Source of the DNA: Escherichia phage vB_EcoM-RPN242
Reading direction: 5' to 3' (one strand)
Sequence record: OL656110.1
Length of the DNA stretch: 64,000 nt
Below the pieces are notes generated by a model. The model was not told the DNA's origin. It ran no database searches and saw only the letters and a list, made by a program, of their open reading frames with translations. The translations under genes were made by a program, and so were the position numbers. Of this stretch, positions 2,789-13,117 are shown piece by piece (position 1 is the first letter of the stretch; each line of letters starts with the position of its first letter).

Positions 2789-4351
2789 ATGAACAAGATT
2801 GACGAAAAGATCCTGAAGTATTTGAAGGAAGGCAAAAGCCAGAGCGCAATTGCTACTCTGTTGGGCATACCCCGCTCGACTGTACAACGTGTTGCAGACA
2901 CGGAACTCGGTGTCAACCCGTTATCGCTGAAATCTCTTACCACTGAAGAGATTCAGCAGATTCAGATGAAGAGCAAGGCTGGTGAAAGCAACCGTGCCCT
3001 GGCTGAGTTCTTTGCTGTAAGCGCCAAGACCATTGCTCGCGCTCTGTTGGTCCGGATTACCGAGGAGAAAAACAAGGTAACTGTGATCTCTCCTATCAAG
3101 CCGGAAGAGCAGGAAGTATTCGAGGTCCAACCGGGCGGCACGGCCAAAGACAAAGATGGCACAGAATGGTATGTTGGGGCATATCTGCCGAACCACAACA
3201 AGTATCTGTGTCTCACTAACGACGGCAATTTCAAAGGGGCTTTCTTTGAAAAGTCTGAATTGACTCCTGTGGAAGGCGATAGTCGCGATTTCGATGTTGA
3301 AGATATCGGCAAGATGGCAGAAATTTCTGTGGCGCTGTCAGAAGGTGCGGACAAAGTCCCGAGCAACGTTGAAATCAGCGTTGTGGTTGACGGGGAAACC
3401 TATCCTATCCGTGGATCCTTGGATGCCCGTCGCCGTGTTGGTTACTTTGATGGCATCCTCGGTCGCACCCTGCGCCTGGCTCTGTCTTCTGTAGAATTCG
3501 CCGTCGCTGTCAAAGACGTTGAAGAAGTGGCTGATGATAAGAAGACCAAGCAGGACTTCGGCGCGAAAGACCTGGACGTGTTCCTGAACGAACACCAGAT
3601 CCTGATTCTTCCTGACAGCGTTGTTATCGCGATTGACGGCAAGCCGGAAACGATCACCACTTCACACCCGGCCTATGACCGCATCGTACAGGCGATCAAA
3701 GACAAAGACGTGAAACTGGCATACTCGCTGATGCGCCCTCGTGAAGCCATCGCGAAGTACGCTGCTGGTCTAGTAGACGTGTCTGACAACCGTGTCCGCT
3801 GGTCTGGCCATGACATCACAGGCACATCCATCGCCAAGCGTGTACTGGCGCTGATGCTGAAGGGTGACTTCCACAACCTGGACCGCATGGCGAAGTTTAT
3901 GGACAAAATGTTCCAGAACCCGTCAGCTTCTCTGGTTCAGTCTGGGCGCATCTATGAGTTCATGGCGTACTCTGACATCGAAATTGACGACGATGGTGAC
4001 ATCATCCTCTACAAATCAGTGCGCGGCAACTACATGGACAAGCACAGCAACACGATCAGCAACGCCCCAGGCACTATCGTGCGGATGGCTCGCTCATTCG
4101 TGAACGACAACAACTCTGAACTGTGTTCATACGGTTTGCACGTTTGCTCCCTGGCCTATCTGAAACAGTGCTTCGGTTCTGTTGGCCAGCGTGTCGTTCG
4201 CTGTAAGCTGAACCCGCGTGACATCGTGTCGGTCACCGATGATTTTGGTTCAAGCAAAATCCGCTGCTGTGAATACCTGGTGTTGGATGACTACACTGCT
4301 GAGTACAATCGCCAGCACAAGTCTATTGACGTGACAGGTCTGTACAAGTAA
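2789..4351 (+). CDS. rIIB: rIIB protein
   Basis: ATG at 2789 (track ORF begins at in-frame TTG 2702); C-terminal block ...GLHVCS...NPRDIVSV... matches my recollection of the T4 rIIB C-terminus; follows rIIA. Confidence 0.75.
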   Translation: MNKIDEKILKYLKEGKSQSAIATLLGIPRSTVQRVADTELGVNPLSLKSLTTEEIQQIQMKSKAGESNRALAEFFAVSAKTIARALLVRITEEKNKVTVISPIKPEEQEVFEVQPGGTAKDKDGTEWYVGAYLPNHNKYLCLTNDGNFKGAFFEKSELTPVEGDSRDFDVEDIGKMAEISVALSEGADKVPSNVEISVVVDGETYPIRGSLDARRRVGYFDGILGRTLRLALSSVEFAVAVKDVEEVADDKKTKQDFGAKDLDVFLNEHQILILPDSVVIAIDGKPETITTSHPAYDRIVQAIKDKDVKLAYSLMRPREAIAKYAAGLVDVSDNRVRWSGHDITGTSIAKRVLALMLKGDFHNLDRMAKFMDKMFQNPSASLVQSGRIYEFMAYSDIEIDDDGDIILYKSVRGNYMDKHSNTISNAPGTIVRMARSFVNDNNSELCSYGLHVCSLAYLKQCFGSVGQRVVRCKLNPRDIVSVTDDFGSSKIRCCEYLVLDDYTAEYNRQHKSIDVTGLYK

Positions 4352-4368
4352 CCAAACCCCATCCACCA

Positions 4369-4389
4369 AGGAGGCTCCGGCCTCCTTTT
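4369..4389 (+). terminator. rho-independent terminator after rIIB
   Basis: stem GGAGGC/GCCTCC with TCCG loop followed by TTTT, 18 nt after the rIIB stop. Confidence 0.6.
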
Positions 4390-4576
4390 CAGTTCGAAGG
4401 CGAGACCAGAGAATACTCCCACAAGAACTTTCCTCCCCGTGAAGTTCATGACCAACAGTTCGTGAAATTGTTCTGTCGCTGTGGTGGTTGCGACTTCACA
4501 GACGAAGGATACGCGATGCACGTATACTGCTGCAATTGCTGTGGTAAATACGTAACAGTCTATAGGAGAACCAAAC

Positions 4577-5002
4577 ATGGCGAAGAAACCTGAAGTCAAG
4601 AAAGTTGAAATTAAAACCGAAGCCCCAGTCGATGACATCCAGGCGAAGGAGGAAGGTGTGTTGCCTACCTACCTACAACGCGCCATCGATAACATCCCTC
4701 CAGGGGGAGACGGAGGCGTCGTCTACGCTGGCGGGTACGGTTGGGTGTGCGAATACCAAGACGGCACGAAGGAACTCCTCCAGGAGCTTCCAGGGCTGGC
4801 TGCGACCCTCAAGCGTTATGGTCGCGACAAGTTCGGCAAGTCGTTTGAAACCGGGGCTGTGATTGAAACCAACATCACAGTCGAGACTCTGAACCTGTTG
4901 GGTGAAGATGATCTCAAGTTGTTGGCTGCGCCGCTGGGTATCACAGAAGAAGATCGCATTCAGCTGATTGCGAAGCTGATCGAAAAATTGCAGATTAAAT
5001 AA
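4577..5002 (+). CDS. hypothetical protein
   Basis: 141-aa ORF with strong SD (TAGGAG, 8-nt spacer) before ATG 4577. Confidence 0.6.
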   Translation: MAKKPEVKKVEIKTEAPVDDIQAKEEGVLPTYLQRAIDNIPPGGDGGVVYAGGYGWVCEYQDGTKELLQELPGLAATLKRYGRDKFGKSFETGAVIETNITVETLNLLGEDDLKLLAAPLGITEEDRIQLIAKLIEKLQIK

Positions 5003-5032
5003 GCCGGTGTACAACAGCTGAACTTATTCAAT

Positions 5033-5425
5033 ATGCCTATCGTTGACGAAAGCAACTTGATGGATTATGCACTGAGGCATTATATTGTAGATTCTGTCTC
5101 GTGGGATGAACTGCTGGTAGACATTCAGCGGATTTCGCTAATTAATCAATCATTGAAGAGATTTGTCCCTGGTAAGAGTCCTCGGTTAATTCTCAATCAA
5201 TTGATTACTGTCTTCAATACGTTCGAAACAGAGGCTGCTTGCCGCATGCTCGTTTTGAAGGTGGATAAGCCCCAGTTGCCACGCCTCAAGGCTGCTTTGT
5301 TGACATTAGGCGTATGGCGCGATGATTTATGTTCCGGTTCATACGAACCAGATAATGAGCTGATGATGGCTCTGAACAACGATTTGGATGAGTGGAGGAA
5401 ACCATGCCAACGATCACTGTATTAG
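5033..5425 (+). CDS. hypothetical protein
   Basis: 130-aa ORF in gene-dense plus-strand block; no clear SD. Confidence 0.5.
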   Translation: MPIVDESNLMDYALRHYIVDSVSWDELLVDIQRISLINQSLKRFVPGKSPRLILNQLITVFNTFETEAACRMLVLKVDKPQLPRLKAALLTLGVWRDDLCSGSYEPDNELMMALNNDLDEWRKPCQRSLY

Positions 5426-6213
5426 TAGCACCGGAAGTTGTTCGCAACAAACCGGAAACTGAGCGTCTTCACACTGTAACAGGTACTGCTCGTGGTTGGG
5501 AAAAGACCAGTCTTAACCAAGACCCAGACGAGATCCTGACTGAGTGTAAAGGTCTGGATGCACTGCTGACCAAGAGCAATTTGCAGGCCGATGGCGTCAC
5601 CAAAGTGGATCCAACCAAGCCCGTTGGCTTCCAGCTGTCTTATGAAATCCACGACCCAAGCGCTGTGCTGACCACTGGCCTGACCATCACCCCTGAAACT
5701 GCTAATGGTGAAGTCGGTCAGGTTGTTGAACTGAAGGCGGTCGTCGCTCCGGAGAACGCGACCTACCAGGGTGTCAACTGGTACTCTGGCGATCTGACCA
5801 AAGCTGTGCACATCGGTGGTGGTAAATTCAAGCTGCTGTCGCCGGGTTCAGTGACTGTTTACGGTGTAACCATCGAAGGTGACCACACCGACTCTACCGT
5901 CATCACAGTGGCTGGCGCTCTGTCTCTGTCTACCGATCTGGCCGCTTCTCAGGATGTAACAACAGGTGAATCCGCAACCTTCACCATCGCTGCTACAGGC
6001 GGCACTACCCCATACACACATACTTGGTACTTCTCTGATGTCCCTGGTGGTGAAGGTGAGGTGATCGATGCTGGCACTAACCCCACTGCTGCAACTGCGA
6101 GCCTGGTTATCACTGCAGTTGCTGCCGAAAACGAGGGTGAGTACTGGTGTGTTGTTGAAGACGCTGACGGCCACTCTGTGACCTCTACTCGTTGCGAAAT
6201 GGCTGCGGTCTAA
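5404..6213 (+). CDS. Ig-like domain protein (Big_2-like plus second Ig-like domain), possible capsid decoration/adhesin
   Basis: ATG 5404 preceded by GGAGGA; Big_2-like segment ATYQGVNWYSGD...SVTVYGVTIEGDHTDSTVITV and Ig-like EGEYWCVVEDADG; track ORF starts at in-frame GTG 5392. Confidence 0.6.
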   Translation: MPTITVLVAPEVVRNKPETERLHTVTGTARGWEKTSLNQDPDEILTECKGLDALLTKSNLQADGVTKVDPTKPVGFQLSYEIHDPSAVLTTGLTITPETANGEVGQVVELKAVVAPENATYQGVNWYSGDLTKAVHIGGGKFKLLSPGSVTVYGVTIEGDHTDSTVITVAGALSLSTDLAASQDVTTGESATFTIAATGGTTPYTHTWYFSDVPGGEGEVIDAGTNPTAATASLVITAVAAENEGEYWCVVEDADGHSVTSTRCEMAAV

Positions 6214-6215
6214 TC

Positions 6216-6449
6216 ATGAAAGGCTTCCAGGACTTCCTTGAAGACTCAGCAGCCCCTGGAACCACGACCGCCGATGTGGGGAAACCCGAAGGCGGTATGG
6301 TGAAAGAGCCTGTCAAGAAGCCCAAGGATCTTGAGGAAGAACAAGAGCAGACCTCCTTCCAAAAGATCTTTGGAAACATCTTCAAAGACCTCGACCTGAA
6401 GAATGCGCGAAAGTGGAACTTCAGGACAGGCAAATATGAAGAGGAATGA
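6216..6449 (+). CDS. hypothetical small acidic/lysine-rich protein
   Basis: 77 codons from ATG 6216, directly followed by a terminator; no obvious SD. Confidence 0.35.
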   Translation: MKGFQDFLEDSAAPGTTTADVGKPEGGMVKEPVKKPKDLEEEQEQTSFQKIFGNIFKDLDLKNARKWNFRTGKYEEE

Positions 6450-6477
6450 GCCATGAACGCGATGATCATGGGTTAAC

Positions 6478-6500
6478 AAAAGAGGCTCCGGCCTCTTTTT
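6478..6500 (+). terminator. rho-independent terminator
   Basis: stem AGAGGC/GCCTCT with TCCG loop plus TTTTT; core GAGGCTCCGGCCTC identical to the terminator at 4369-4389. Confidence 0.6.
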
Positions 6501-6518
6501 CATTTCCGGTATTCGGTG

Positions 6519-6524
6519 TATAAT
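6519..6524 (+). promoter_or_regulatory. candidate -10 element (TGTATAAT) downstream of terminator
   Basis: TATAAT at 6519-6524 preceded by TG; no convincing -35; ~40 nt upstream of SD/ATG 6568. Confidence 0.25.
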
Positions 6525-6567
6525 GGAACCGTTCCCCATGAGCGGAACCTATCTGAGGATACACCAA

Positions 6568-7068
6568 ATGAAATCCATGGTCAAACGTAAAGTCGAAATC
6601 TCCCTGACTGCCCATATTGAAATGGTCCAACAACTTATCCTGGATGCGTATGAAATCCAGAAAGATCGCCAATCGAGGGGAGGTGTGACGGACCCCACCT
6701 GTCCTGGAAACATACTGTACTATCGCATGCTGCGCCAGACTGGGCACACCGCCGCGCTGAAGAAGATTCTGTCCTATGATTTCCAGACAGAGAACAACCT
6801 CAACATCATGGGAGTCTTCCATAGCGTTAATGAACGCGATTCTTTCTTCCGCTCCCGAGCAGGCGCGGATGTATCATTGCCCGATGTAGACAAGAAACAG
6901 CACACGACAACCATCTCCCATTACATGGGCACGGGCATCGATAAAGCAAACATCATCGTGTTCTCTGATACATTGCATGACCCCAAGCGCCTTGCATCTG
7001 CGCATGAAATGCTGCGGGAAGGCCGCAGCGCCCTCACTAATTTGACTTTAGTAGTGTTTCTGGGCTAG
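6568..7068 (+). CDS. hypothetical protein
   Basis: ATG 6568 with SD GAGGA (8-nt spacer); upstream in-frame ATG 6523 overlaps the -10 element and lacks SD. Confidence 0.5.
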   Translation: MKSMVKRKVEISLTAHIEMVQQLILDAYEIQKDRQSRGGVTDPTCPGNILYYRMLRQTGHTAALKKILSYDFQTENNLNIMGVFHSVNERDSFFRSRAGADVSLPDVDKKQHTTTISHYMGTGIDKANIIVFSDTLHDPKRLASAHEMLREGRSALTNLTLVVFLG

Positions 7069-7076
7069 ATAGTTAC

Positions 7077-7100
7077 AGGGGAGGAAACTCCCCTATTTCC
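7077..7100 (+). terminator. candidate terminator (GAAA tetraloop hairpin)
   Basis: stem AGGGGAG/CTCCCCT with GAAA loop followed by ATTTCC, 9 nt after stop of upstream gene. Confidence 0.45.
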
Positions 7101-7117
7101 CTAACAGGAGGTGCGCA

Positions 7118-7315
7118 ATGTACAAGTTCAGAATTAACAGAGAACGTAATTCGTCCAAATTCGGTGTAATCGCTGGGGTGTGTTTGTTCCTGGCGCTCGA
7201 AAGCGTTATCGGCCTGCTTACAACACCACAAATGCAGGTGACTCGTTACCTTCTTGCCATTATATTTTCTGTTGTCGGTTTACTCTGCTCCTATTTGGGG
7301 TGTGTGAAGAAATAA
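7118..7315 (+). CDS. hypothetical small membrane protein
   Basis: 65-aa ORF with strong SD AGGAGG; two hydrophobic segments. Confidence 0.5.
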   Translation: MYKFRINRERNSSKFGVIAGVCLFLALESVIGLLTTPQMQVTRYLLAIIFSVVGLLCSYLGCVKK

Positions 7316-7357
7316 ACTGGCTACACACAGCAATACTTTGATTTGAGAAACTACATC

Positions 7358-7846
7358 ATGATGCTGTTAATGAGCGTTCCACAGAACAAGATGACCCCTG
7401 CAACAGAGGGTAAGAATCACTTCAACATCTACAGCCGGAGCCAGACGGAACTCGGGCGCTTCCTCTCGCATTTTACCCATCATCCAATGACTACCCATGA
7501 ACATGGTGTGTTTAACTCCATGGAGGGGTACTGGTATTGGCTGAAGTATAGGGATGACAACCTGCGCCTGCTCGACGGTTATGAGGCCAAGCAATATGGA
7601 CAGGGATTGGCGGCTTCCCGCGTCATTGTCCTGGACCCGTCTACCGAAGAATTCAAGCGCGATATCCTATTTGCAACTAGTATGAAACTCCAGACAATGC
7701 CTGAACGTCTGAAGATCAGATTGGCGTACAGTCGCCTACCCCTGATCCATGCATATGTTCAGAACGGGAAATACAGTTTTCAAAACTCTATGGACTATAT
7801 CATTGCCCACATTAATCGTCTCCGCATACAAGGAACTTTGAAATGA
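7358..7846 (+). CDS. NADAR-like (YbiA/DUF1768-like) domain protein, candidate ADP-ribosyl-nucleobase hydrolase
   Basis: motif series IYSRS, LGRFLSHF, FNSMEGYWYWLKY, YEAKQYGQG, SMKLQTMPERLKIRL matches my recollection of NADAR signature blocks (FYS.S / DFSNF / SEHYFQA.K); ATG 7358. Confidence 0.5.
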   Translation: MMLLMSVPQNKMTPATEGKNHFNIYSRSQTELGRFLSHFTHHPMTTHEHGVFNSMEGYWYWLKYRDDNLRLLDGYEAKQYGQGLAASRVIVLDPSTEEFKRDILFATSMKLQTMPERLKIRLAYSRLPLIHAYVQNGKYSFQNSMDYIIAHINRLRIQGTLK

Positions 7847-8424
7847 AATTTCTACACACTATCGTCGACACTTCTTATGACTGCACTGCTCATACCCCAG
7901 ACCGTTCGCCTGTGTTTGTTCTGAACAAACTAGGTGAAGAGATCTGTGAACTGTCTGATGTGTTTCATGGCATAGTATCTTCCGAGCCGTTGAATGGCGA
8001 AGTTGCTGATGTCATTATCTCTGCTATTGACCTTCTGTACGTCATGGATTATGACGACGTCCAAATGCGCGGCTCTCTGAACAAGGCCGAAATGATCGAC
8101 TCTGTCATCAACCACATGGCGACAGTGAACGATATTTCTTCTAATCTGTTGGAAGAAGACTGGTTCCGTCTGATTGATCGTGATCCTCAAAAGCATCTGA
8201 ATCTTATCCATCATTATCATGGCCGGATTATCCGATTGTGCAACCAACCTTATCGCAGTCAAGACAGATTGGATCATCTTGTCAATGACCTAATCAAGCA
8301 TGTTGCGCGCATGGGGTGTGGGGAAGGGGCGATCCGTGGATCCTCTTTGATGGCCACTCGCATTAAAGTGGAGCACGCTATTGAACACAAGGTTGAAAAG
8401 TGGCGTAGCAAATTTGGCTTATGA
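7843..8424 (+). CDS. MazG-like all-alpha NTP pyrophosphohydrolase (putative)
   Basis: LNKLGEEICELSDV resembles the MazG E-E-x-x-E metal-binding helix; ATG overlaps upstream stop (ATGA). Confidence 0.4.
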   Translation: MKFLHTIVDTSYDCTAHTPDRSPVFVLNKLGEEICELSDVFHGIVSSEPLNGEVADVIISAIDLLYVMDYDDVQMRGSLNKAEMIDSVINHMATVNDISSNLLEEDWFRLIDRDPQKHLNLIHHYHGRIIRLCNQPYRSQDRLDHLVNDLIKHVARMGCGEGAIRGSSLMATRIKVEHAIEHKVEKWRSKFGL

Positions 8425-9251
8425 AATACGAAATCATCTTAGACGCTCTCATACAGAGAGCAATACAGAGAGGTAAAATGGATGGCGTTTATCAAGAACG
8501 CCACCATATAATCCCTGTGTGCTTGGGTGGCACTAACCACTTCTCTAATCTTGTATGGTTGACACCAGAAGAACATTATGTCGTACATCACCTACTTTGG
8601 AGAACAAAACCACTCAACCCCGGTATCAGGAAGGCATGGACTGGGATGAACAACATGTCTAGGAACAACAAAGAGTTTGGGGAATTGAGGAGAAATAATT
8701 CCGCCAGAATGAAAGAAGTGATGTCATCTGATGAACAAAAGGAACGTTGTCGTAAGCAATCCAAGAAAAACTCATTGAACCCAGAAGTACAGAAGAAACG
8801 TGCGGATAGCTTGAGAGGTTACACTTGGAATGACGAATCAAGGCGCAGGTTGTCAAAATCCAGGAAAGGGATACCACACTCCGAAGCACACAAAGCCAAT
8901 CTTACCAAATCAGTCACCGAACGGATGAGGCGACCAGAAGAAAGGGAGAGGTATTCTGCTATGTGGCGCCAGAACAATCCCATGAATAACATACAACCTT
9001 GGGAACACCCGACTGTCGTAAAGACGGGTAAATCCCGACAATGGCTCTTGGCTGGTGAATTCTTTGAATGGTGGTATAGTAACGGTGAAGACAAAGTGAA
9101 GAACCGTTATTGTTTAATGTTGAAAGAAACCGGGTTAAGCTCTGTTTGTTCTAAGGCCACAGCTCAAACTTGTATATCTAAATTTCAGAAAGGTTGGATA
9201 CCAAAAGAAGATCCCGCCTGGTTGAAATTTTACGGAGATAATAATGGTTGA
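8421..9251 (+). CDS. HNH homing endonuclease with NUMOD-like motifs
   Basis: HNH core HHIIPVCLGGTNHFSNLVWLTPEEHYVVH; repeated SRKG.PHSE-type motifs; paralogous to ORF 24783-25382; sits immediately upstream of topoisomerase gene. Confidence 0.75.
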   Translation: MKYEIILDALIQRAIQRGKMDGVYQERHHIIPVCLGGTNHFSNLVWLTPEEHYVVHHLLWRTKPLNPGIRKAWTGMNNMSRNNKEFGELRRNNSARMKEVMSSDEQKERCRKQSKKNSLNPEVQKKRADSLRGYTWNDESRRRLSKSRKGIPHSEAHKANLTKSVTERMRRPEERERYSAMWRQNNPMNNIQPWEHPTVVKTGKSRQWLLAGEFFEWWYSNGEDKVKNRYCLMLKETGLSSVCSKATAQTCISKFQKGWIPKEDPAWLKFYGDNNG

Positions 9252-11142
9252 TGTAAACAGAAAATACAAAAAGCTCTCACACATCGAGCATATACTCCTT
9301 CGCCCAGAGCGCCATCTAGGGAGTATCCGTTCTTCTGTCGGGATGGCTTGGGTATATGATCTCAGCAAAGACAAAGTTGTGTTTAAAGACAATTTTGAAT
9401 ATAACCCCGCTCTTATCAAACAGTTTGATGAAATCATCACCAACTGTGTTGACCACAGCAAGACCCCTGAGGGTAAATCCCTGACGGAAATCACCGTCAC
9501 AGTTTCCCCGATGAACGGTCAAATCATCGTTGCTGACAACGGGGGTATCCCTGTGGTCAAACATGAATCTGGTATGTGGTTGCCAGAAATGTTATTTTCA
9601 GAATTGTTTGCGGGATCGAACTTCAACGACGAAGACGAAGAGTACAACAACCAGAAGTCCGGTGGTCAGAATGGCGAAGGGGCGTCCCTCGTCAACGTGT
9701 TCTCCAAATGGTTCCGCATCACGACTAATGACGGCAAGAAGTCTTATACTCAGACGTTTGAAGACAACATGAGCAAGAAATCTAACCCAGTCATCAGCAA
9801 CGTGAACAGTCCCGGCACATCCATCGCCTGGATCCCTGACTATGCTCGCCTGGGCGTCAAAGGACTTGACCAGAACAACCTGCTGATGATCTATCGCCGC
9901 GCGTTTGAAGTGGCTGCGTGTAACCCGCGCCTGAAGATTGTTCTCAACGGGAAGCAAATCCGGATTGACCGCTTTGGCCACTTCGTTGATTACTTCCATG
10001 CTGGTTCGGCTGTTGACGAAACCGGGGATTGGTCTGTTGCTGTAGCCCCTTCATCCGGTACGTTCATGCACGCATCATACGTGAACTCTATTGCCACCCA
10101 CATCGGTGGTCCTCACGTTGATTATGTTGCCGACCAGATCGTGGCAGCGATTCGTCCCCAGCTGGTGAAGAAGTTCAAGACCGAGCTGAAACCTGCCATG
10201 ATCAAGAACCACATGTCCTTGTTCATCGCTGCCGACATCAACAACCCGCGCTTTGACAGCCAGACCAAGGAGCGCATGACCACTCCTGTCAGCCAGTTCG
10301 GTACGTCGTACAAGCCCAGTGATAAACTGATCCGCAAGGCGCTTGAGTTCGTTACGGCTGGTCTGAGCAAAGAACTGGCTTCCCTGCGCAATGAGCAGGA
10401 CGATGCTGAGTTTGAAAAGGCCAAGAAGGACATCAGCAAGCGGGATTATCGTGAGATTGAGAAGTATTACCCGGCGACCGCCCGTGGTGACCGCAGCGGA
10501 TGCTCCCTGTTGCTGACAGAGGGTGATAGTGCCTCCAATCCTATCCTGAATGCCCGCGACACCAAGAAGATCGGGTTGTTCCCGCTTCGTGGTAAGTTCA
10601 TCAACTGCCTGAACGCCCCGCGCTCAAAGGTGATGAACAATGAAGAGTTCAAGAACCTGTGTACGATCCACGGCGGCGCAGTGCCAGGCCAGCCCCTTGA
10701 TATCACCCGTTACCCACAGACTGTTGTGGCTACCGATGCGGACGATGATGGCATCCACATCCGTGGGTTGTTGATCACCCTGTATTGCACCTACTGGCCG
10801 GAGTACGTCCGTCAGGGCAGGCTGAAGCTCCTGCGCACCCCTTACATGCGTGTGTGGTGTGGTAAGGTGATGCATGAGTTCATGAACAACGCAGAGTATG
10901 AGGAGTTCCTGAAGACGCCTGATGCCAAGAAGATCACGAAGAAGAAATATCTGAAAGGTCTGGGTGGTAACAGCACTGAAGACTTCAAACGTATTCTAAA
11001 CAACCTGGATGCGTATACTACGACGGTCACGCTGGACGATGGCTATCAACAGTCACTGAAGAATGGCTTCGGTGATGAGGCCGCCGATTACCGCAAAACC
11101 TGGTTTAGCGATGTTTGCCTGTTTGAAACTGAGGATGAATAA
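9244..11142 (+). CDS. 39: DNA topoisomerase II large subunit (GyrB-like, fused gp39+gp60 equivalent)
   Basis: 632 aa; GHKL ATPase and TOPRIM-region motifs LLLTEGDSA, PRFDSQTKER; SD GGAGA. Confidence 0.9.
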   Translation: MVDVNRKYKKLSHIEHILLRPERHLGSIRSSVGMAWVYDLSKDKVVFKDNFEYNPALIKQFDEIITNCVDHSKTPEGKSLTEITVTVSPMNGQIIVADNGGIPVVKHESGMWLPEMLFSELFAGSNFNDEDEEYNNQKSGGQNGEGASLVNVFSKWFRITTNDGKKSYTQTFEDNMSKKSNPVISNVNSPGTSIAWIPDYARLGVKGLDQNNLLMIYRRAFEVAACNPRLKIVLNGKQIRIDRFGHFVDYFHAGSAVDETGDWSVAVAPSSGTFMHASYVNSIATHIGGPHVDYVADQIVAAIRPQLVKKFKTELKPAMIKNHMSLFIAADINNPRFDSQTKERMTTPVSQFGTSYKPSDKLIRKALEFVTAGLSKELASLRNEQDDAEFEKAKKDISKRDYREIEKYYPATARGDRSGCSLLLTEGDSASNPILNARDTKKIGLFPLRGKFINCLNAPRSKVMNNEEFKNLCTIHGGAVPGQPLDITRYPQTVVATDADDDGIHIRGLLITLYCTYWPEYVRQGRLKLLRTPYMRVWCGKVMHEFMNNAEYEEFLKTPDAKKITKKKYLKGLGGNSTEDFKRILNNLDAYTTTVTLDDGYQQSLKNGFGDEAADYRKTWFSDVCLFETEDE

Positions 11143-11143
11143 G

Positions 11144-12475
11144 ATGGTTGCTAAGAGCATTACTGTAACGGACTTTGTCAACACTGACCATAAGCAGTTT
11201 TCTGTGGTCAACAGCATCCGCCAAATCCCTCAGCTGATTGACAGCCTCAAGCCAAGCCAGCGCAAGATCCTTTTCGCTGCACTTGAGTACAATAAGGAGG
11301 AGATTGTTGACCGCCTTGGTATGTTCGCCGCCGCTCGCACCAACTACAAGTCTGGTGGTGAGAACATGAGCGGCACTATCGTGAACATGGCTCAGGGGTT
11401 CCCAGGCACGAACAACATCCCGTACTTTGACCGCGATGGCCAGTTTGGTTCTATCATGGGGCGTGACGCGTCGTCGGCACGTTACATTTCGGTGGCTGTA
11501 TCTGATGTTATCCGCAAGATCTTCCGCAAGGAGGATGAGGGTATCTTGGAATACAACTACCTTGGTGAAGAAAGGCTGGAGCCGAAGTTCTTTCTGCCCA
11601 TCCTACCCATGTTCCTGGTGAATGGGATCAATGGTATCGGCACCGGATATTCCACCGACACCCCGTGTCATTGCGTTAAGTCCGTGCTGAATGCCCTGAG
11701 AGCGCTTCTCCGTGGCGAAGACCCGAAAGACTTAAAACCGTACTGGAACGGCTTCAAAGGAGAGACAGGCTATACTGAGGAAGGAAGAGCATACAGTCGT
11801 GGTATCTTCCGTCGGGTCAATGCCACGACCCTGCATATCACCGAAGTCCCAGTGGGTTGGTTCGCCAAAACCTATGAGACCAAGGTGTTGCTGCCTCTGT
11901 ACAAGGCAGGTATCCTCACCGAGTACGCCAACGACACGACGGAAGATGGCTGGGATATCACGGTTGTGTTTAAGCGCGGCGAACTCTCTAAGCTGAGTGA
12001 CGAGCAGGTTGAGCAGATGTTCAAGCTGTATTCAGCCACCAAGCCTGTTTGGACGGCCTGGGATGAAGACGGTGTTATTCATCGTTATTCTGGTTGGCGG
12101 GACATGTTGCTGCCGTTCTTCAACTATCGCCTGTCCCGGTATGAAGACCGTCGCCAGTATCTGTTGAAGGACATGGCAGACAGGATCCGCAAGCTGGGTG
12201 ACCGGGCGGTGTTCATTGAATGGGCGACGCGTGTTGATCTCCGCCAAAAGATTGACGTGCTGAAGTCTCTGTTCATGCAGGACTACCCGGACTTTGGTGG
12301 TGATCTTGACGAGTTGTTCAAGATGCCTCTGTCGTCTATTACTCTGGACGCCCGTGAGCGCCTACTCAAGCAGATAGAGAACCTTGAAGCACAGCACAAG
12401 GAATTAAGTAAGAAAGAGGACATCGATCTTTACACTGATGACCTTGATGACCTTGAAAAGGCTCTTGGTCTTTAA
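11144..12475 (+). CDS. 52: DNA topoisomerase II medium subunit (GyrA-like, gp52)
   Basis: ATG 11144 after SD GAGGA, 1 nt after gp39 stop; GyrA-like motifs GQFGS, ARYI, GIGTGYSTD. Confidence 0.85.
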   Translation: MVAKSITVTDFVNTDHKQFSVVNSIRQIPQLIDSLKPSQRKILFAALEYNKEEIVDRLGMFAAARTNYKSGGENMSGTIVNMAQGFPGTNNIPYFDRDGQFGSIMGRDASSARYISVAVSDVIRKIFRKEDEGILEYNYLGEERLEPKFFLPILPMFLVNGINGIGTGYSTDTPCHCVKSVLNALRALLRGEDPKDLKPYWNGFKGETGYTEEGRAYSRGIFRRVNATTLHITEVPVGWFAKTYETKVLLPLYKAGILTEYANDTTEDGWDITVVFKRGELSKLSDEQVEQMFKLYSATKPVWTAWDEDGVIHRYSGWRDMLLPFFNYRLSRYEDRRQYLLKDMADRIRKLGDRAVFIEWATRVDLRQKIDVLKSLFMQDYPDFGGDLDELFKMPLSSITLDARERLLKQIENLEAQHKELSKKEDIDLYTDDLDDLEKALGL

Positions 12476-12479
12476 CATA

Positions 12480-12495
12480 GGAGGGTTCGCCCTCC
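12480..12495 (+). promoter_or_regulatory. UUCG-tetraloop hairpin whose 3' arm is complementary to the downstream SD
   Basis: GGAGGG-TTCG-CCCTCC right after gp52 stop; downstream SD GGAGGG (12502-12507) can alternatively pair with CCCTCC. Confidence 0.4.
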
Positions 12496-12514
12496 TCACC
12501 TGGAGGGTTGTGCT

Positions 12515-12802
12515 ATGTTCTATCTCCGTTCTGCAGCACCTGTGGTATTCATCATTTTCCTATTTGATTTCCTGGTTCCTCGCTTTATCAAAGAGGAGGT
12601 GGCGTTTGGTCTCTATGGTGAGACGGAAGACCCAGAGGTCGATGAATATTACCCAATGTGCGCCCTGAAAGATATCGAGGAAGGGGAAGATGTTGCAATG
12701 GTCGGCACTATGCGTTCTTTCAACCTGTTCGGGATTGCACTCTTTCCGAAACTGGTTGGTGAACTGCGCCCCTACGTTCCTGAAGCCACTGTAGATGGTT
12801 GA
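12515..12802 (+). CDS. hypothetical protein with N-terminal hydrophobic segment
   Basis: 95-aa ORF, SD GGAGGG. Confidence 0.5.
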   Translation: MFYLRSAAPVVFIIFLFDFLVPRFIKEEVAFGLYGETEDPEVDEYYPMCALKDIEEGEDVAMVGTMRSFNLFGIALFPKLVGELRPYVPEATVDG

Positions 12803-12841
12803 TCATAACATAGCTTCTGAGTCCTAAACTTCTGTCTATGG

Positions 12842-13117
12842 ATGTTTCCTTGTATTTTCATTGTCCTGGGTGTGATATACTTCATCTGTATCGCATTAAG
12901 GGCGAAATCCAAGGTCTTGATGTGGATGTGGAACAACAATATTATTGAGCCTACGTTCACACCGAGCCTGCTGGTGAATACAACTGATCCAGCATCATTT
13001 TGCCATCTATTCCTGACCGACGGCAAAATACAATTCCTCGGCGACTGTTTCCATGATCTGAAGAACCAGACAGTGGATATGGTCGACATCTCTGAACCTG
13101 AAATTTGGATTGAATAG
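12842..13117 (+). CDS. hypothetical membrane-anchored protein (start uncertain)
   Basis: 91-aa ORF; N-terminal TM-like FPCIFIVLGVIYFICIAL; no SD. Confidence 0.35.
   Translation: MFPCIFIVLGVIYFICIALRAKSKVLMWMWNNNIIEPTFTPSLLVNTTDPASFCHLFLTDGKIQFLGDCFHDLKNQTVDMVDISEPEIWIE

What the first reader, a model, noticed from the sequence alone, without database searches (positions are those of the whole stretch)
7358..7846. NADAR-like ORF: candidate ADP-ribosyl-guanine hydrolase
The ORF shows a run of blocks (IYSRS, LGRFLSHF, FNSMEGYWYWLKY, YEAKQYGQG, SMKLQTMPERLKIRL) in the same order as the NADAR/YbiA-like signature blocks as I recall them. NADAR domains have been reported to reverse DarT1-type guanine ADP-ribosylation of DNA. 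A phage copy in the early accessory island would be a plausible anti-DarTG1 counter-defence gene.
Basis: partly seen in the sequence, partly recalled or inferred. Interest (0 to 1): 0.8.

Follow-up and report, generated by a model that had tools for sequence, protein, structure and literature searches.

The report
Divergent phage NADAR-type ADP-ribose hydrolase
This phage gene encodes a highly diverged, so far unannotated relative of the NADAR enzymes that strip ADP-ribose off DNA bases, so it is a credible but untested candidate for disarming a bacterial anti-phage toxin.

Summary
The ORF at 7358-7846 (+, 162 aa) is real, and every quoted block is present. The window is an Agtrevirus (Ackermannviridae) genome.

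Deeper tests support a NADAR protein:
- Profile-profile comparison gives 96-98% probability to the T4 gp30.3/AdfN family and 81-96% to YbiA, across the full length.
- E56, K63 and H131 align with the AdfN residues E36, K43 and H123.

The protein belongs to a large clade (about 1,800 clusters, 575 phage records, all annotated "hypothetical") that is almost entirely viral. Clade members are often fused to, or sit next to, Macro, SLOG and DUF4326 domains.

The most likely function is an ADP-ribosyl N-glycohydrolase used as counter-defence. Anti-DarTG1 activity is the leading specific guess but is not shown. The lysine is clade-specific, the pyrophosphate-binding arginine is Gln in this protein, and no toxin partner was found.

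Verdict: a new member of a known kind, of moderate interest.

The parts
7358..7846 (+). NADAR-like ORF, 162 aa plus stop. An in-frame TTG lies at 7343, and a possible internal start at M12 (7391).
   Evidence: ORF list and sequence. Annotated as a CDS at the same position in PQ306799.1. AF2 model pLDDT 92.8. The only meaningful fold matches are the three solved NADAR structures.
7418..7474 (+). N-terminal motif HFNIYSRSQTELGRFLSHF (residues 21-39). It corresponds to the NADAR 'FYS...G.FSNF' block.
   Evidence: H21, N23, Y25, S26, T30, G33, L36 and F39 are at least 95% conserved in 191 family domains. The block aligns with YbiA INFYSTSDDYGDFSNF and gp30.3 ALSNF.
7520..7546 (+). Catalytic helix MEGYWYWLK (residues 55-63). 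E56 is the putative catalytic Glu, and K63 is the Lys seven residues later.
   Evidence: E56 is invariant, 191 of 191. It aligns with AdfN E36 and YbiA E48, and via YbiA with Pn E43. K63 aligns with AdfN K43, YbiA K55 and Pn K50. K63 is present in only 33 of 191 family domains.
7583..7603 (+). EAKQYGQ (residues 76-82). Via YbiA, K78 maps to Pn K75 (E. coli C7 K115), G81 to Pn G78, and Q82 to the pyrophosphate-binding Pn R79.
   Evidence: A77, K78 and G81 are at least 96% conserved. Register comes from hhalign and the 8bau alignment. Residue roles come from PMC11543638. Position 82 is R or K in 140 of 191 domains but Q here.
7673..7687 (+). ATSMK (residues 106-110). K110 is invariant.
   Evidence: K110 is present in 192 of 192 domains. 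It aligns with the conserved YbiA 'AKF' lysine K104.
7736..7756 (+). LPLIHAY (residues 127-133). H131 is the putative third active-site residue, of the phage type.
   Evidence: P128, H131 and Y133 are at least 97% conserved. H131 aligns with the invariant H123 of the gp30.3 family. Phage NADARs carry His at the E125 position (PMC11543638). The register against YbiA E125/H126 is uncertain by one residue.
7843..8424 (+). Downstream MazG-like ORF, given as context. Its start overlaps the NADAR-like stop (ATGA at 7843-7846).
   Evidence: Sequence. PHROG 1247 at E = 1.6e-35, with no Pfam or NCBIfam hit. The pairing recurs in Ackermannviridae records but not in distant family members.
7016..7476 (.). 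Segment missing from Ds9CZ-type Dickeya phages, a natural deletion. It removes the 3' end of the histone-like gene, the 65-aa membrane ORF and about the first 40 codons of the NADAR-like ORF.
   Evidence: Two-piece matches at 84% coverage in 11 of the 25 best records. Ds9CZ annotation and alignment. Breakpoints mapped at window 7015 and 7470.

Best explanation
The ORF encodes a small stand-alone enzyme of the NADAR superfamily. It belongs to a previously unannotated, almost exclusively viral clade whose nearest characterised relative is T4 gp30.3 (AdfN).

Shown here:
- The protein has the NADAR fold.
- It is homologous over its full length to the gp30.3 and YbiA families.
- It conserves the residues that in solved or mutated NADARs hold the distal ribose (E56), the adenine and phosphate (K63), the DNA or toxin-related lysine (K78) and the phage-type third residue (H131).

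Inferred:
- It binds an ADP-ribosyl conjugate in the cleft formed by helix 55-64, the AK..G loop and the C-terminal hairpin, and hydrolyses the N-glycosidic bond between the distal ribose and its acceptor.
- The most likely physiological substrate is ADP-ribosylated guanine in phage DNA made by host DarT1-type toxins. That would make the protein an orphan-antitoxin counter-defence like AdfN.
- It is probably expressed with the neighbouring replication-region genes.

My confidence is about 0.9 for the NADAR superfamily assignment, about 0.65 for an active ADP-ribosyl N-glycohydrolase, and about 0.35-0.4 for anti-DarTG1 specifically.

For: Homology. hhalign gives 96.2% (E 2.8e-9) against gp30.3 relatives and 81.2% against YbiA relatives. 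A 189-sequence profile raises these to 98.2% (E 3.8e-13) and 96.3% (E 1.2e-9) over about 140 columns. An HMM of gp30.3 relatives picks this ORF as its best hit in the window, E 4.4e-4.

Residues. E56 is invariant. K78, K110 and H131 are at least 96% conserved over 191 domains that are mostly under 50% identical to one another. E56, K63 and H131 align with AdfN E36, K43 and H123, and mutating E36 or K43 abolishes AdfN function.

Context. Fusion partners in 70 long relatives are DUF4326 (12), Macro (9) and SLOG families (13), plus one canonical NADAR domain. In Erwinia phage Ea35-70 a Macro gene sits directly upstream.

Literature. All four NADAR subtypes tested hydrolyse guanine-ADPr in vitro (PMC11125620). 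All phage NADARs tested counter DarTG1 (PMC11257639).

Dispensability. The gene is partly deleted in a Dickeya phage subgroup, as expected for a counter-defence gene.
Against: - No hit to Pfam NADAR or Phage_30_3, to NCBIfam, or to PDB sequences by profile HMM.
- The canonical lysine (K63) is present in only 33 of 191 family domains.
- The position of the pyrophosphate-binding Arg (Pn R79) is Gln in this protein.
- The C-terminal NADAR phosphate-binding motif (D130..W133-G) is replaced by H-A/Y-Y.
- No ADP-ribosyltransferase or DarT gene lies next to any of about 60 family loci examined.
- Some phages, and one polypeptide, carry both a canonical NADAR and this domain, which suggests non-redundant substrates.
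- The Macro, SLOG and DUF4326 association was interpreted by Iyer et al. 2022 as processing of soluble ADPr derivatives.
- No activity, expression timing or DarTG1 sensitivity data exist for Ackermannviridae.
Confidence: 0.5

Rival explanations
1. It is a NADAR-fold hydrolase whose substrate is a soluble NAD+/ADP-ribose-derived molecule rather than DNA. Candidates are an immune signal or toxin product such as a cyclic or linear ADPr derivative. It would act together with Macro, SLOG and DUF4326-type enzymes to blunt NAD+/ADPr-based defences.
For: Family members are fused or adjacent to DUF4326, Macro, SLOG (YAcAr, YpsA, DprA-like), ARH and cREC domains. Iyer et al. 2022 describe exactly this network and predict soluble ADPr substrates for phage NADARs. 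The domain co-occurs with canonical NADARs in Yersinia phage fHe-Yen9-04 and in protein P0123. The nucleotide-binding residues are altered: Q82 here, and the D130/W133 motif is lost.
Against: Every NADAR tested experimentally so far acts on base-linked ADPr (guanine, cytidine) in nucleic acids. The Ackermannviridae protein itself is stand-alone, with no Macro, SLOG or DUF4326 gene annotated nearby. K78, which aligns with the lysine needed for DarT1 rescue but not for catalysis, is invariant.
Confidence: 0.25
2. It is a YbiA-like N-glycosidase acting on ordinary nucleotide or riboflavin-pathway intermediates. In this reading it is part of the phage's nucleotide-pool or thymidine-hypermodification metabolism, working with the translationally coupled MazG-like pyrophosphatase.
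For: YbiA is annotated as an N-glycosidase. There is an ATGA overlap with a MazG-like ORF. Neighbours of distant relatives often include thymidylate synthase, DHFR, RNR and dNMP kinase genes.
Against: Nucleotide-metabolism neighbours are common in any large-phage replication module. The MazG pairing is confined to Ackermannviridae. The closest family is gp30.3/AdfN, not YbiA. The fusion partners are ADPr-specific domains. The gene is deleted in Dickeya phages that presumably keep their DNA chemistry.
Confidence: 0.1
3. It is a non-catalytic protein that retains the NADAR fold. It could be a virion-packaged or binding (sponge-like) protein, as suggested by the 'virion structural protein' label in one related genome.
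For: The label 'virion structural protein' appears in PQ306799.1. Iyer et al. state that NADAR proteins are often packaged into myovirus virions. The canonical Lys and Arg are not both kept.
Against: The putative active-site residues E56, K78, K110 and H131 are near-invariant across about 190 diverged domains, which argues for catalysis. Packaging would not exclude enzyme activity. No proteomic evidence was found here, and phrog_652 is listed as function unknown.
Confidence: 0.05

Closest known systems
T4 gp30.3 / AdfN (Pfam PF08010 Phage_30_3), the orphan NADAR that neutralises DarTG1
   Same: Both are stand-alone phage proteins of about 150-160 aa. Profile-profile probability is 96-98% over the full length. 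The Glu / Lys+7 / His triad is the same (E56/K63/H131 against E36/K43/H123), and both carry the 'LSNF', 'EG(F/Y)' and 'AK..G' motifs. Both are orphans with no adjacent toxin gene.
   Different: About 19-20% identity in the profile alignments. It does not reach PF08010 even at E<=10. It has the 'EGYWYW' and 'H(A/Y)Y' motifs in place of 'EGFLQ' and 'KHSIG'. The lysine is not conserved across its clade. It occurs in different phage groups (Ackermannviridae, jumbo phages, Vibrio phages). Activity is untested.
E. coli YbiA / canonical NADAR (Pfam PF08719; PDB 2B3W, 8BAU)
   Different: No HMM hit. The C-terminal 'E-H-T-x-N-D-x-Y-W-G-D-G' nucleotide-binding segment is replaced by a short 'H-A/Y-Y' hairpin. 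His takes the place of the YbiA-type Glu. The clade is viral rather than cellular, with only 13 loci in about 100,000 species genomes.
DarG1 (DarT1-associated NADAR antitoxin of E. coli C7 and G. lovleyi; PDB 8BAT)
   Different: It is not encoded next to a DarT toxin. It has His rather than Asp at the D171 position. It is shorter (162 aa against 219 aa) and has Gln at the R79-equivalent position.
AdfN-Bas32 and AdfN-Bas60 (NADARs of T5-like phages and Vequintavirinae)
   Same: They are divergent phage NADARs outside the T4 group that were shown to counter DarTG1. They set a precedent for independent phage acquisitions.
   Different: Those proteins were found through conserved-domain NADAR models and cluster with archaeal or bacterial NADARs. 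This clade is missed by PF08719 and is nearly absent from cellular genomes. No member of any NADAR type was detectable in the Vequintavirus rV5, so a direct comparison could not be made.

Membership tests
NADAR superfamily | [quoted passage not shown] | tested here: met
NADAR superfamily | Significant match to the Pfam NADAR model PF08719 | tested here: not met
   No family at E<=1 for the protein. None of 26 close relatives hits PF08719 at E<=10. No precomputed Pfam domain on any of 42 homologues.
NADAR superfamily | Detectable sequence homology to canonical (YbiA-type) NADARs | tested here: met
   hhalign 81.2% (E 1.2e-5) with 26 sequences. 96.3% (E 1.2e-9) over 140 columns with a 189-sequence profile. 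Control comparison of gp30.3 against YbiA gives 98.1%.
NADAR superfamily | Catalytic glutamate contacting the distal ribose (Pn E43, EcC7 E88, AdfN E36) | tested here: met
   E56 aligns with AdfN E36 and YbiA E48, and via YbiA with Pn E43. It is invariant in 191 of 191 family domains.
NADAR superfamily | Lysine seven residues after the Glu, binding adenine and phosphate (Pn K50, EcC7 K95, AdfN K43) | tested here: met
   K63 is present in this protein and in the Ackermannviridae members. Across the clade it is present in only 33 of 191 domains (G, S or L otherwise).
NADAR superfamily | Pyrophosphate-binding arginine after the AK..G loop (Pn R79) | tested here: not met
   The position is Q82 in this protein, and R or K in 140 of 191 clade members. 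It is almost mutually exclusive with K63. Register.
NADAR superfamily | Third active-site residue (Glu in the YbiA type, Asp in the DarT1-linked type, His in the phage type) | tested here: inconclusive
   H131 (190 of 191 domains) aligns with the invariant gp30.3 H123. Against YbiA it falls on H126, next to E125, so the register is uncertain by one residue. No structural superposition was available.
NADAR superfamily | Hydrolysis of base-linked ADP-ribose (guanine-ADPr) | not testable with these tools
   This needs a biochemical assay.
Phage_30_3 / AdfN (PF08010) | Match to PF08010 above the gathering score | tested here: not met
   No hit for the window protein. 2 of 26 relatives give weak hits (best E 0.013), and 2 of 70 long relatives reach E 4.4e-6, below the cut-off.
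Phage_30_3 / AdfN (PF08010) | Full-length homology and the shared E/K/H triad | tested here: met
   hhalign 96.2-98.2% over 137-139 columns. A home-built gp30.3-family HMM hits the ORF at E 4.4e-4.
Phage_30_3 / AdfN (PF08010) | Neutralises DarT1 and restores phage growth on DarTG1 hosts | not testable with these tools
   This needs genetics. No literature on Ackermannviridae and DarTG was found.
DarG1 antitoxin (DarT1-linked NADAR) | Encoded next to a DarT1 ADP-ribosyltransferase | tested here: not met
   No ART is annotated within roughly 6-7 kb either side of the corresponding gene in the related record PQ306799.1 or among its annotated products from 15 to 64 kb. None is seen among 128 neighbours or fusions of 50 viral loci, or among 81 proteins around 11 bacterial-genome loci.
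DarG1 antitoxin (DarT1-linked NADAR) | Lysine equivalent to EcC7 K115, required for rescue from DarT1 | tested here: met
   Via YbiA, K78 maps to Pn K75, the residue corresponding to EcC7 K115. It is conserved in 186 of 191 domains.

The most novel reading that the evidence does not exclude
The 'EGYWYW/HYY' proteins form a distinct, virus-specific branch of the NADAR superfamily with its own substrate, not guanine-ADPr made by DarT1. The substrate could be another base- or RNA-linked ADP-ribose, or a soluble ADPr-derived immune signal. That would explain four observations. Phages and single polypeptides carry this domain alongside a canonical NADAR. It is wired to Macro, SLOG and DUF4326 domains. 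The nucleotide-binding half of the pocket is rebuilt. The phosphate-binding charge is supplied by either K63 or R82 but rarely both. If so, it would point to an as yet unknown host ADP-ribosylation or NAD-derived defence that Ackermannviridae and many jumbo phages counter.
Probability: 0.3. Interest if true: 0.75.

Novelty: new member of a known kind. Interest (0 to 1): 0.5.

Why it matters
Phage NADARs were only recently shown to act as orphan antitoxins against DarTG1 (T4 AdfN). The known examples are those that standard domain models can recognise.

This ORF belongs to a large clade that those models miss entirely. The clade comprises about 1,800 clusters at 50% identity and is present in 575 phage genome records, including therapeutic-candidate Salmonella, E. 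coli and Klebsiella Ackermannviridae.

Recognising it as NADAR-type gives these "hypothetical proteins" a testable function. It enlarges the set of phages predicted to resist ADP-ribosylation-based immunity. Natural variants are also available for dissecting NADAR substrate recognition: the K63/R82 swap, the Dickeya-phage deletion, and genomes that carry two NADAR types. For phage therapy and biocontrol, the gene may help predict host range on strains carrying DarTG-like systems.

Tried and rejected
- **Pfam, NCBIfam and PDB-sequence profile searches** gave nothing meaningful. The weak PDB sequence hits (Rrp17, phage G1 ORF067, thioredoxin; E 0.19-0.73) were treated as chance.
- **Promoter and terminator consensus scan** of 4000-13000 found no more sites than shuffled sequence, so nothing can be said about the transcription unit or its timing.
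- **Toxin-antitoxin pairing.** A scan of about 100,000 bacterial and archaeal genomes found only 13 loci. None had a DarT or ART neighbour, and several look like binned phage DNA.
- **Neighbourhood analysis of 50 diverse viral loci** showed ADPr-processing partners but no ART.
- **Comparison with AdfN-Bas60.** I scanned the whole Vequintavirus rV5 genome with three NADAR-type HMMs to test whether AdfN-Bas60 belongs to this clade. No member was found, so the question stays open.
- **Literature.** Searches for Ackermannviridae with NADAR or DarTG, and for Ackermannviridae transcriptomes, returned nothing relevant. Supplements of the key papers are not held.
- **Pseudogene or mis-called ORF** was considered and rejected: the protein is conserved, with 29 invariant columns across relatives of 39-91% identity.
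- **Active-site geometry** could not be checked, because model and PDB coordinates cannot be superposed with these tools.

Full report
**Where the window comes from.** Bases 6500-9300 are 97% identical to Escherichia phages A221, PC3 and PH4 and to Salmonella phage vB_CECAV_050. They are 86-90% identical to Dickeya LIMEstone-type phages. The related record belongs to Ackermannviridae, Aglimvirinae, Agtrevirus. Gene order around the finding is rIIA, rIIB, several small genes and a histone-like DNA-binding protein (6523-7068). Then come a 65-aa membrane ORF (7118-7315), the ORF in question (7358-7846) and a MazG-like ORF (7843-8424). An HNH homing endonuclease (8421-9251) and the topoisomerase II subunits (from 9244) follow. 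All are on the + strand.

**Observation.** The ORF is real. It starts at ATG 7358, with an in-frame TTG at 7343, stops at 7844-7846 and encodes 162 aa. The protein is conserved in 42 clusters found by the word-indexed search, and none of them carries a precomputed Pfam domain. An alignment of 26 relatives (39-91% identity) has 29 invariant columns. These include H21, N23, Y25, S26, E56-W61, A77, K78, G81, K110, P128, H131 and Y133.

**The proposed check fails.** hmmscan against Pfam finds no family at E<=1 for this protein. Among 26 relatives at E<=10, none hits PF08719, and only two give weak hits to PF08010 (Phage_30_3), best E 0.013. NCBIfam finds nothing. A profile HMM of the family finds no NADAR chain among PDB sequences. 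PHROGs places the protein in phrog_652, function unknown.

**Fold.** An AlphaFold2 model built on the 26-sequence alignment is confident (mean pLDDT 92.8, pTM 0.86). It shows an N-terminal strand and hairpin, five helices (55-64, 67-71, 74-87, 97-112, 116-124), a second hairpin (132-141) and a C-terminal helix. [quoted passage not shown]
- Foldseek returns the same three (E 3e-4 to 4e-2, probabilities 0.94-1.00) and then noise.
- Among predicted viral structures, direct relatives come first, followed by many proteins named "NADAR domain-containing".

**Sequence homology.** I fetched T4 gp30.3 and E. coli YbiA, collected their relatives and aligned them.
- hhalign of the 26-sequence family alignment gives 96.2% (E 2.8e-9, 139 columns) against gp30.3 relatives. 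Against YbiA relatives it gives 81.2% (E 1.2e-5, 95 columns).
- The control, gp30.3 against YbiA, gives 98.1%.
- With a 189-sequence family profile the values rise to 98.2% (E 3.8e-13) and 96.3% (E 1.2e-9), both over essentially the full length.
- An HMM built from gp30.3 relatives ranks this ORF first among all six-frame segments of the window, E 4.4e-4.

The protein is therefore a bona fide but very divergent NADAR, closest to the phage gp30.3/AdfN branch.

**Active-site comparison.** I used the hhalign registers and the alignment of the 8bau chain to the YbiA profile, which fixes the numbering.

| Residue here | Equivalent in characterised NADARs | Conservation in 191 family domains |
|---|---|---|
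| E56 | AdfN E36, YbiA E48, Pn E43 | 191 of 191 |
| K63 | AdfN K43, YbiA K55, Pn K50 | 33 of 191 |
| K78 | Pn K75, EcC7 K115 | 186 |
| G81 | Pn G78 | 186 |
| Q82 | Pn R79 | R or K in 140 |
| K100 | Pn R93, YbiA K93 | K or R in 127 |
| K110 | YbiA K104 | 192 of 192 |
| H131 | gp30.3 H123 | 190 |
| Y133 | Pn W133 | 189 |

The equivalences to AdfN/gp30.3 and YbiA come directly from the hhalign alignments; those to Pn and EcC7 residues are transferred through YbiA.

According to Schuller et al. (PMC11543638), E43 and E125 hold the distal ribose, and K50, R79, W89, R93 and W133 hold the adenine and pyrophosphate. K115 of the E. coli C7 enzyme is needed for rescue from DarT1 but not for catalysis. 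Phage NADARs carry His in place of E125. In AdfN, E36A and K43A abolish function.

This protein therefore has the AdfN-type Glu/Lys/His set and the K115-equivalent lysine. It lacks the R79 arginine and the D130-x-x-W133-G segment.

Across 191 family domains, K63 is confined to the Ackermannviridae-type sequences. It is almost mutually exclusive with a basic residue at position 82. Because K50 and R79 both contact the pyrophosphate in 8BAU, this looks like a compensatory relocation of one positive charge. It may reflect a single evolutionary event, and I could not verify it on coordinates.

**Size and distribution of the clade.** A full HMMER scan of 1.84 billion cluster representatives found 1,838 proteins at E<=1e-3 and 391 at E<=1e-30. 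Many of them are multi-domain.
- tblastn finds the protein in 575 phage records, 380 of them covering at least 80% of it. These are Ackermannviridae of Salmonella, Escherichia, Klebsiella, Dickeya, Serratia and Erwinia, jumbo phages such as 121Q and Ea35-70, and Vibrio phages of about 157 kb. In the 40 sampled rows the matching feature is labelled hypothetical, has no name or falls in an unannotated record; in PQ306799.1 the corresponding CDS is labelled virion structural protein.
- In one genome per each of about 100,000 bacterial and archaeal species, only 13 loci were found. Several of them carry phage genes.
- Canonical YbiA-like NADARs occur in a largely different set of 641 phage records.

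**Functional context.**
- Among 70 long family representatives, the fused domains are DUF4326 (12), Macro (9), YAcAr (6), DprA-like SLOG (5), DUF488-N3a (4) and YpsA (2). One protein also carries a canonical PF08719 NADAR domain.
- Among 128 fusion or neighbour proteins from 50 distinct viral loci, DUF4326 (5), YAcAr (3), ADP-ribosylglycohydrolase (1), Macro (1) and cREC (1) appear. Ordinary nucleotide-metabolism genes are also present.
- In Erwinia phage Ea35-70 the domain is fused to a SLOG domain and follows a Macro gene directly.
- This is the Macro, NADAR, SLOG and DUF4326 network described by Iyer et al. 2022, who predicted soluble ADPr-derivative substrates.
- No ADP-ribosyltransferase or DarT neighbour was seen anywhere.
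- Yersinia phage fHe-Yen9-04 carries both a canonical NADAR and a member of this clade. So does the single protein P0123. This argues for non-identical roles.

**Dispensability.** Eleven of the 25 best-matching records, all Dickeya phages (Ds9CZ, JA15, PP35, phiD3 and others), match the region in two pieces. In Ds9CZ a 461-bp deletion (window about 7016-7476) joins the 3' part of the histone-like gene to codon 40 or so of this ORF. What remains is a 119-aa fragment lacking the whole N-terminal motif. LIMEstone1, Kamild and RC-2014 keep the intact gene. Loss in one lineage fits an accessory, host-dependent function. It recalls the truncated, inactive AdfN of RB69.

**Interpretation.**
- That this is a NADAR-superfamily protein is close to certain.
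- That it is an active hydrolase is likely, because the putative pocket residues are near-invariant over a very deep family.
- Which ADP-ribosyl conjugate it cleaves is not determined. Every NADAR subtype assayed so far removes ADP-ribose from guanine in vitro (PMC11125620). Every phage NADAR tested counters DarTG1 (PMC11257639). DarTG1 occurs in E. coli, one of the host genera of these phages. This makes anti-DarTG1 the single most probable role.
- The rebuilt nucleotide-binding half of the pocket, the co-occurrence with canonical NADARs and the Macro, SLOG and DUF4326 association keep a different substrate a serious alternative. Candidates are another base (NADARs also reverse cytidine-ADPr, PMC12945103), RNA, or a soluble signal.

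**Novelty.** Phage NADARs as orphan antitoxins are known. This clade is not recognised by Pfam or NCBIfam and has no assigned function in PHROGs or in the sampled phage records. I found no paper linking Ackermannviridae with NADAR or DarTG. The sensitive survey of Iyer et al. probably included it within "NADAR", but I could not verify this because the supplements are not held. I therefore rate it a new member of a known kind, of moderate interest.

Noticed in passing
window 7016-7476: Ds9CZ-type Dickeya phages (11 of the 25 best-matching records) carry a 461-bp deletion. It removes the end of the histone-like gene, the 65-aa membrane ORF and about the first 40 codons of the NADAR-like ORF, leaving a 119-aa fragment that starts at a GTG equivalent to M44.
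   Followed up: yes
window 7544-7546 (K63) and 7601-7603 (Q82); family alignment of 191 domains: A basic residue occurs at position 63 or at position 82 but almost never at both: K63 pairs with Q, S or E at 82, and G, S or L at 63 pairs with R or K at 82. Via YbiA, these positions map to PnNADAR K50 and R79, which both contact the ADP-ribose pyrophosphate. This looks like a compensatory swap, but it may be a single phylogenetic event.
   Followed up: partly
window 7843-8424: The MazG-like ORF (PHROG 1247, no Pfam or NCBIfam hit) starts inside the stop codon of the NADAR-like ORF (ATGA). The pairing is seen in several Ackermannviridae records but absent from distant relatives of the NADAR-like gene. 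Its substrate is unknown.
   Followed up: partly
protein P0123 (1415 aa, metagenomic); L079 / NC_042116.1 Yersinia phage fHe-Yen9-04: One giant protein carries a canonical PF08719 NADAR domain, a domain of this clade and DUF4326. A jumbo Yersinia phage encodes a canonical NADAR and a member of this clade at separate loci. The two types are probably not redundant.
   Followed up: partly
L001 6855-7343 (PQ306799.1 cecavS50_009): The orthologue in Salmonella phage vB_CECAV_050 is annotated 'virion structural protein', whereas phrog_652 is listed as function unknown and the sampled records call it hypothetical. The source of that label was not found.
   Followed up: no
window 8421-9251: An HNH/NUMOD-type homing endonuclease (PHROG 655, E 9.5e-66) is wedged between the MazG-like gene and the topoisomerase II large-subunit gene, overlapping the start of the latter (9244). 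Phage vB_EcoM-ZQ1, whose NADAR-like protein is 100% identical, matches the region in two pieces at only 80% coverage. Which segment it lacks was not checked.
   Followed up: no
window 5392-6213: An Ig-like/Big_2 domain protein (PHROG 215 'structural protein with Ig domain', Hoc-like) lies among the replication-region genes just downstream of rIIB. The ORF that begins at 4577 shares a DUF7440 segment with its N-terminus.
   Followed up: no
window 6523-7068: PHROG 4164 'histone family DNA-binding' (E 2.4e-76) has no Pfam or NCBIfam match. The best sigma-70-like site in the region (10 of 12 matches, 6497-6524) lies just upstream, but site counts do not exceed those in shuffled sequence.
   Followed up: no
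window 7358-7393: The first 12 residues (MMLLMSVPQNKM) occur only in the closest relatives (about 51% identity or more in the 26-sequence alignment). More distant relatives start near residue 9-12, so M12 (ATG 7391) could be the true start. Only a weak GAGA lies upstream of 7358.
   Followed up: no
L090-L102 (bacterial and archaeal genome scan): The 13 'cellular' loci include a Pseudomonas megaplasmid and MAG contigs carrying phage-type genes (5-hmdU DNA kinase, PhoH, thymidine kinase, pyrimidine-dimer glycosylase). Two loci have DUF488-N3a proteins. These are likely phage or plasmid DNA rather than chromosomal genes.
   Followed up: partly
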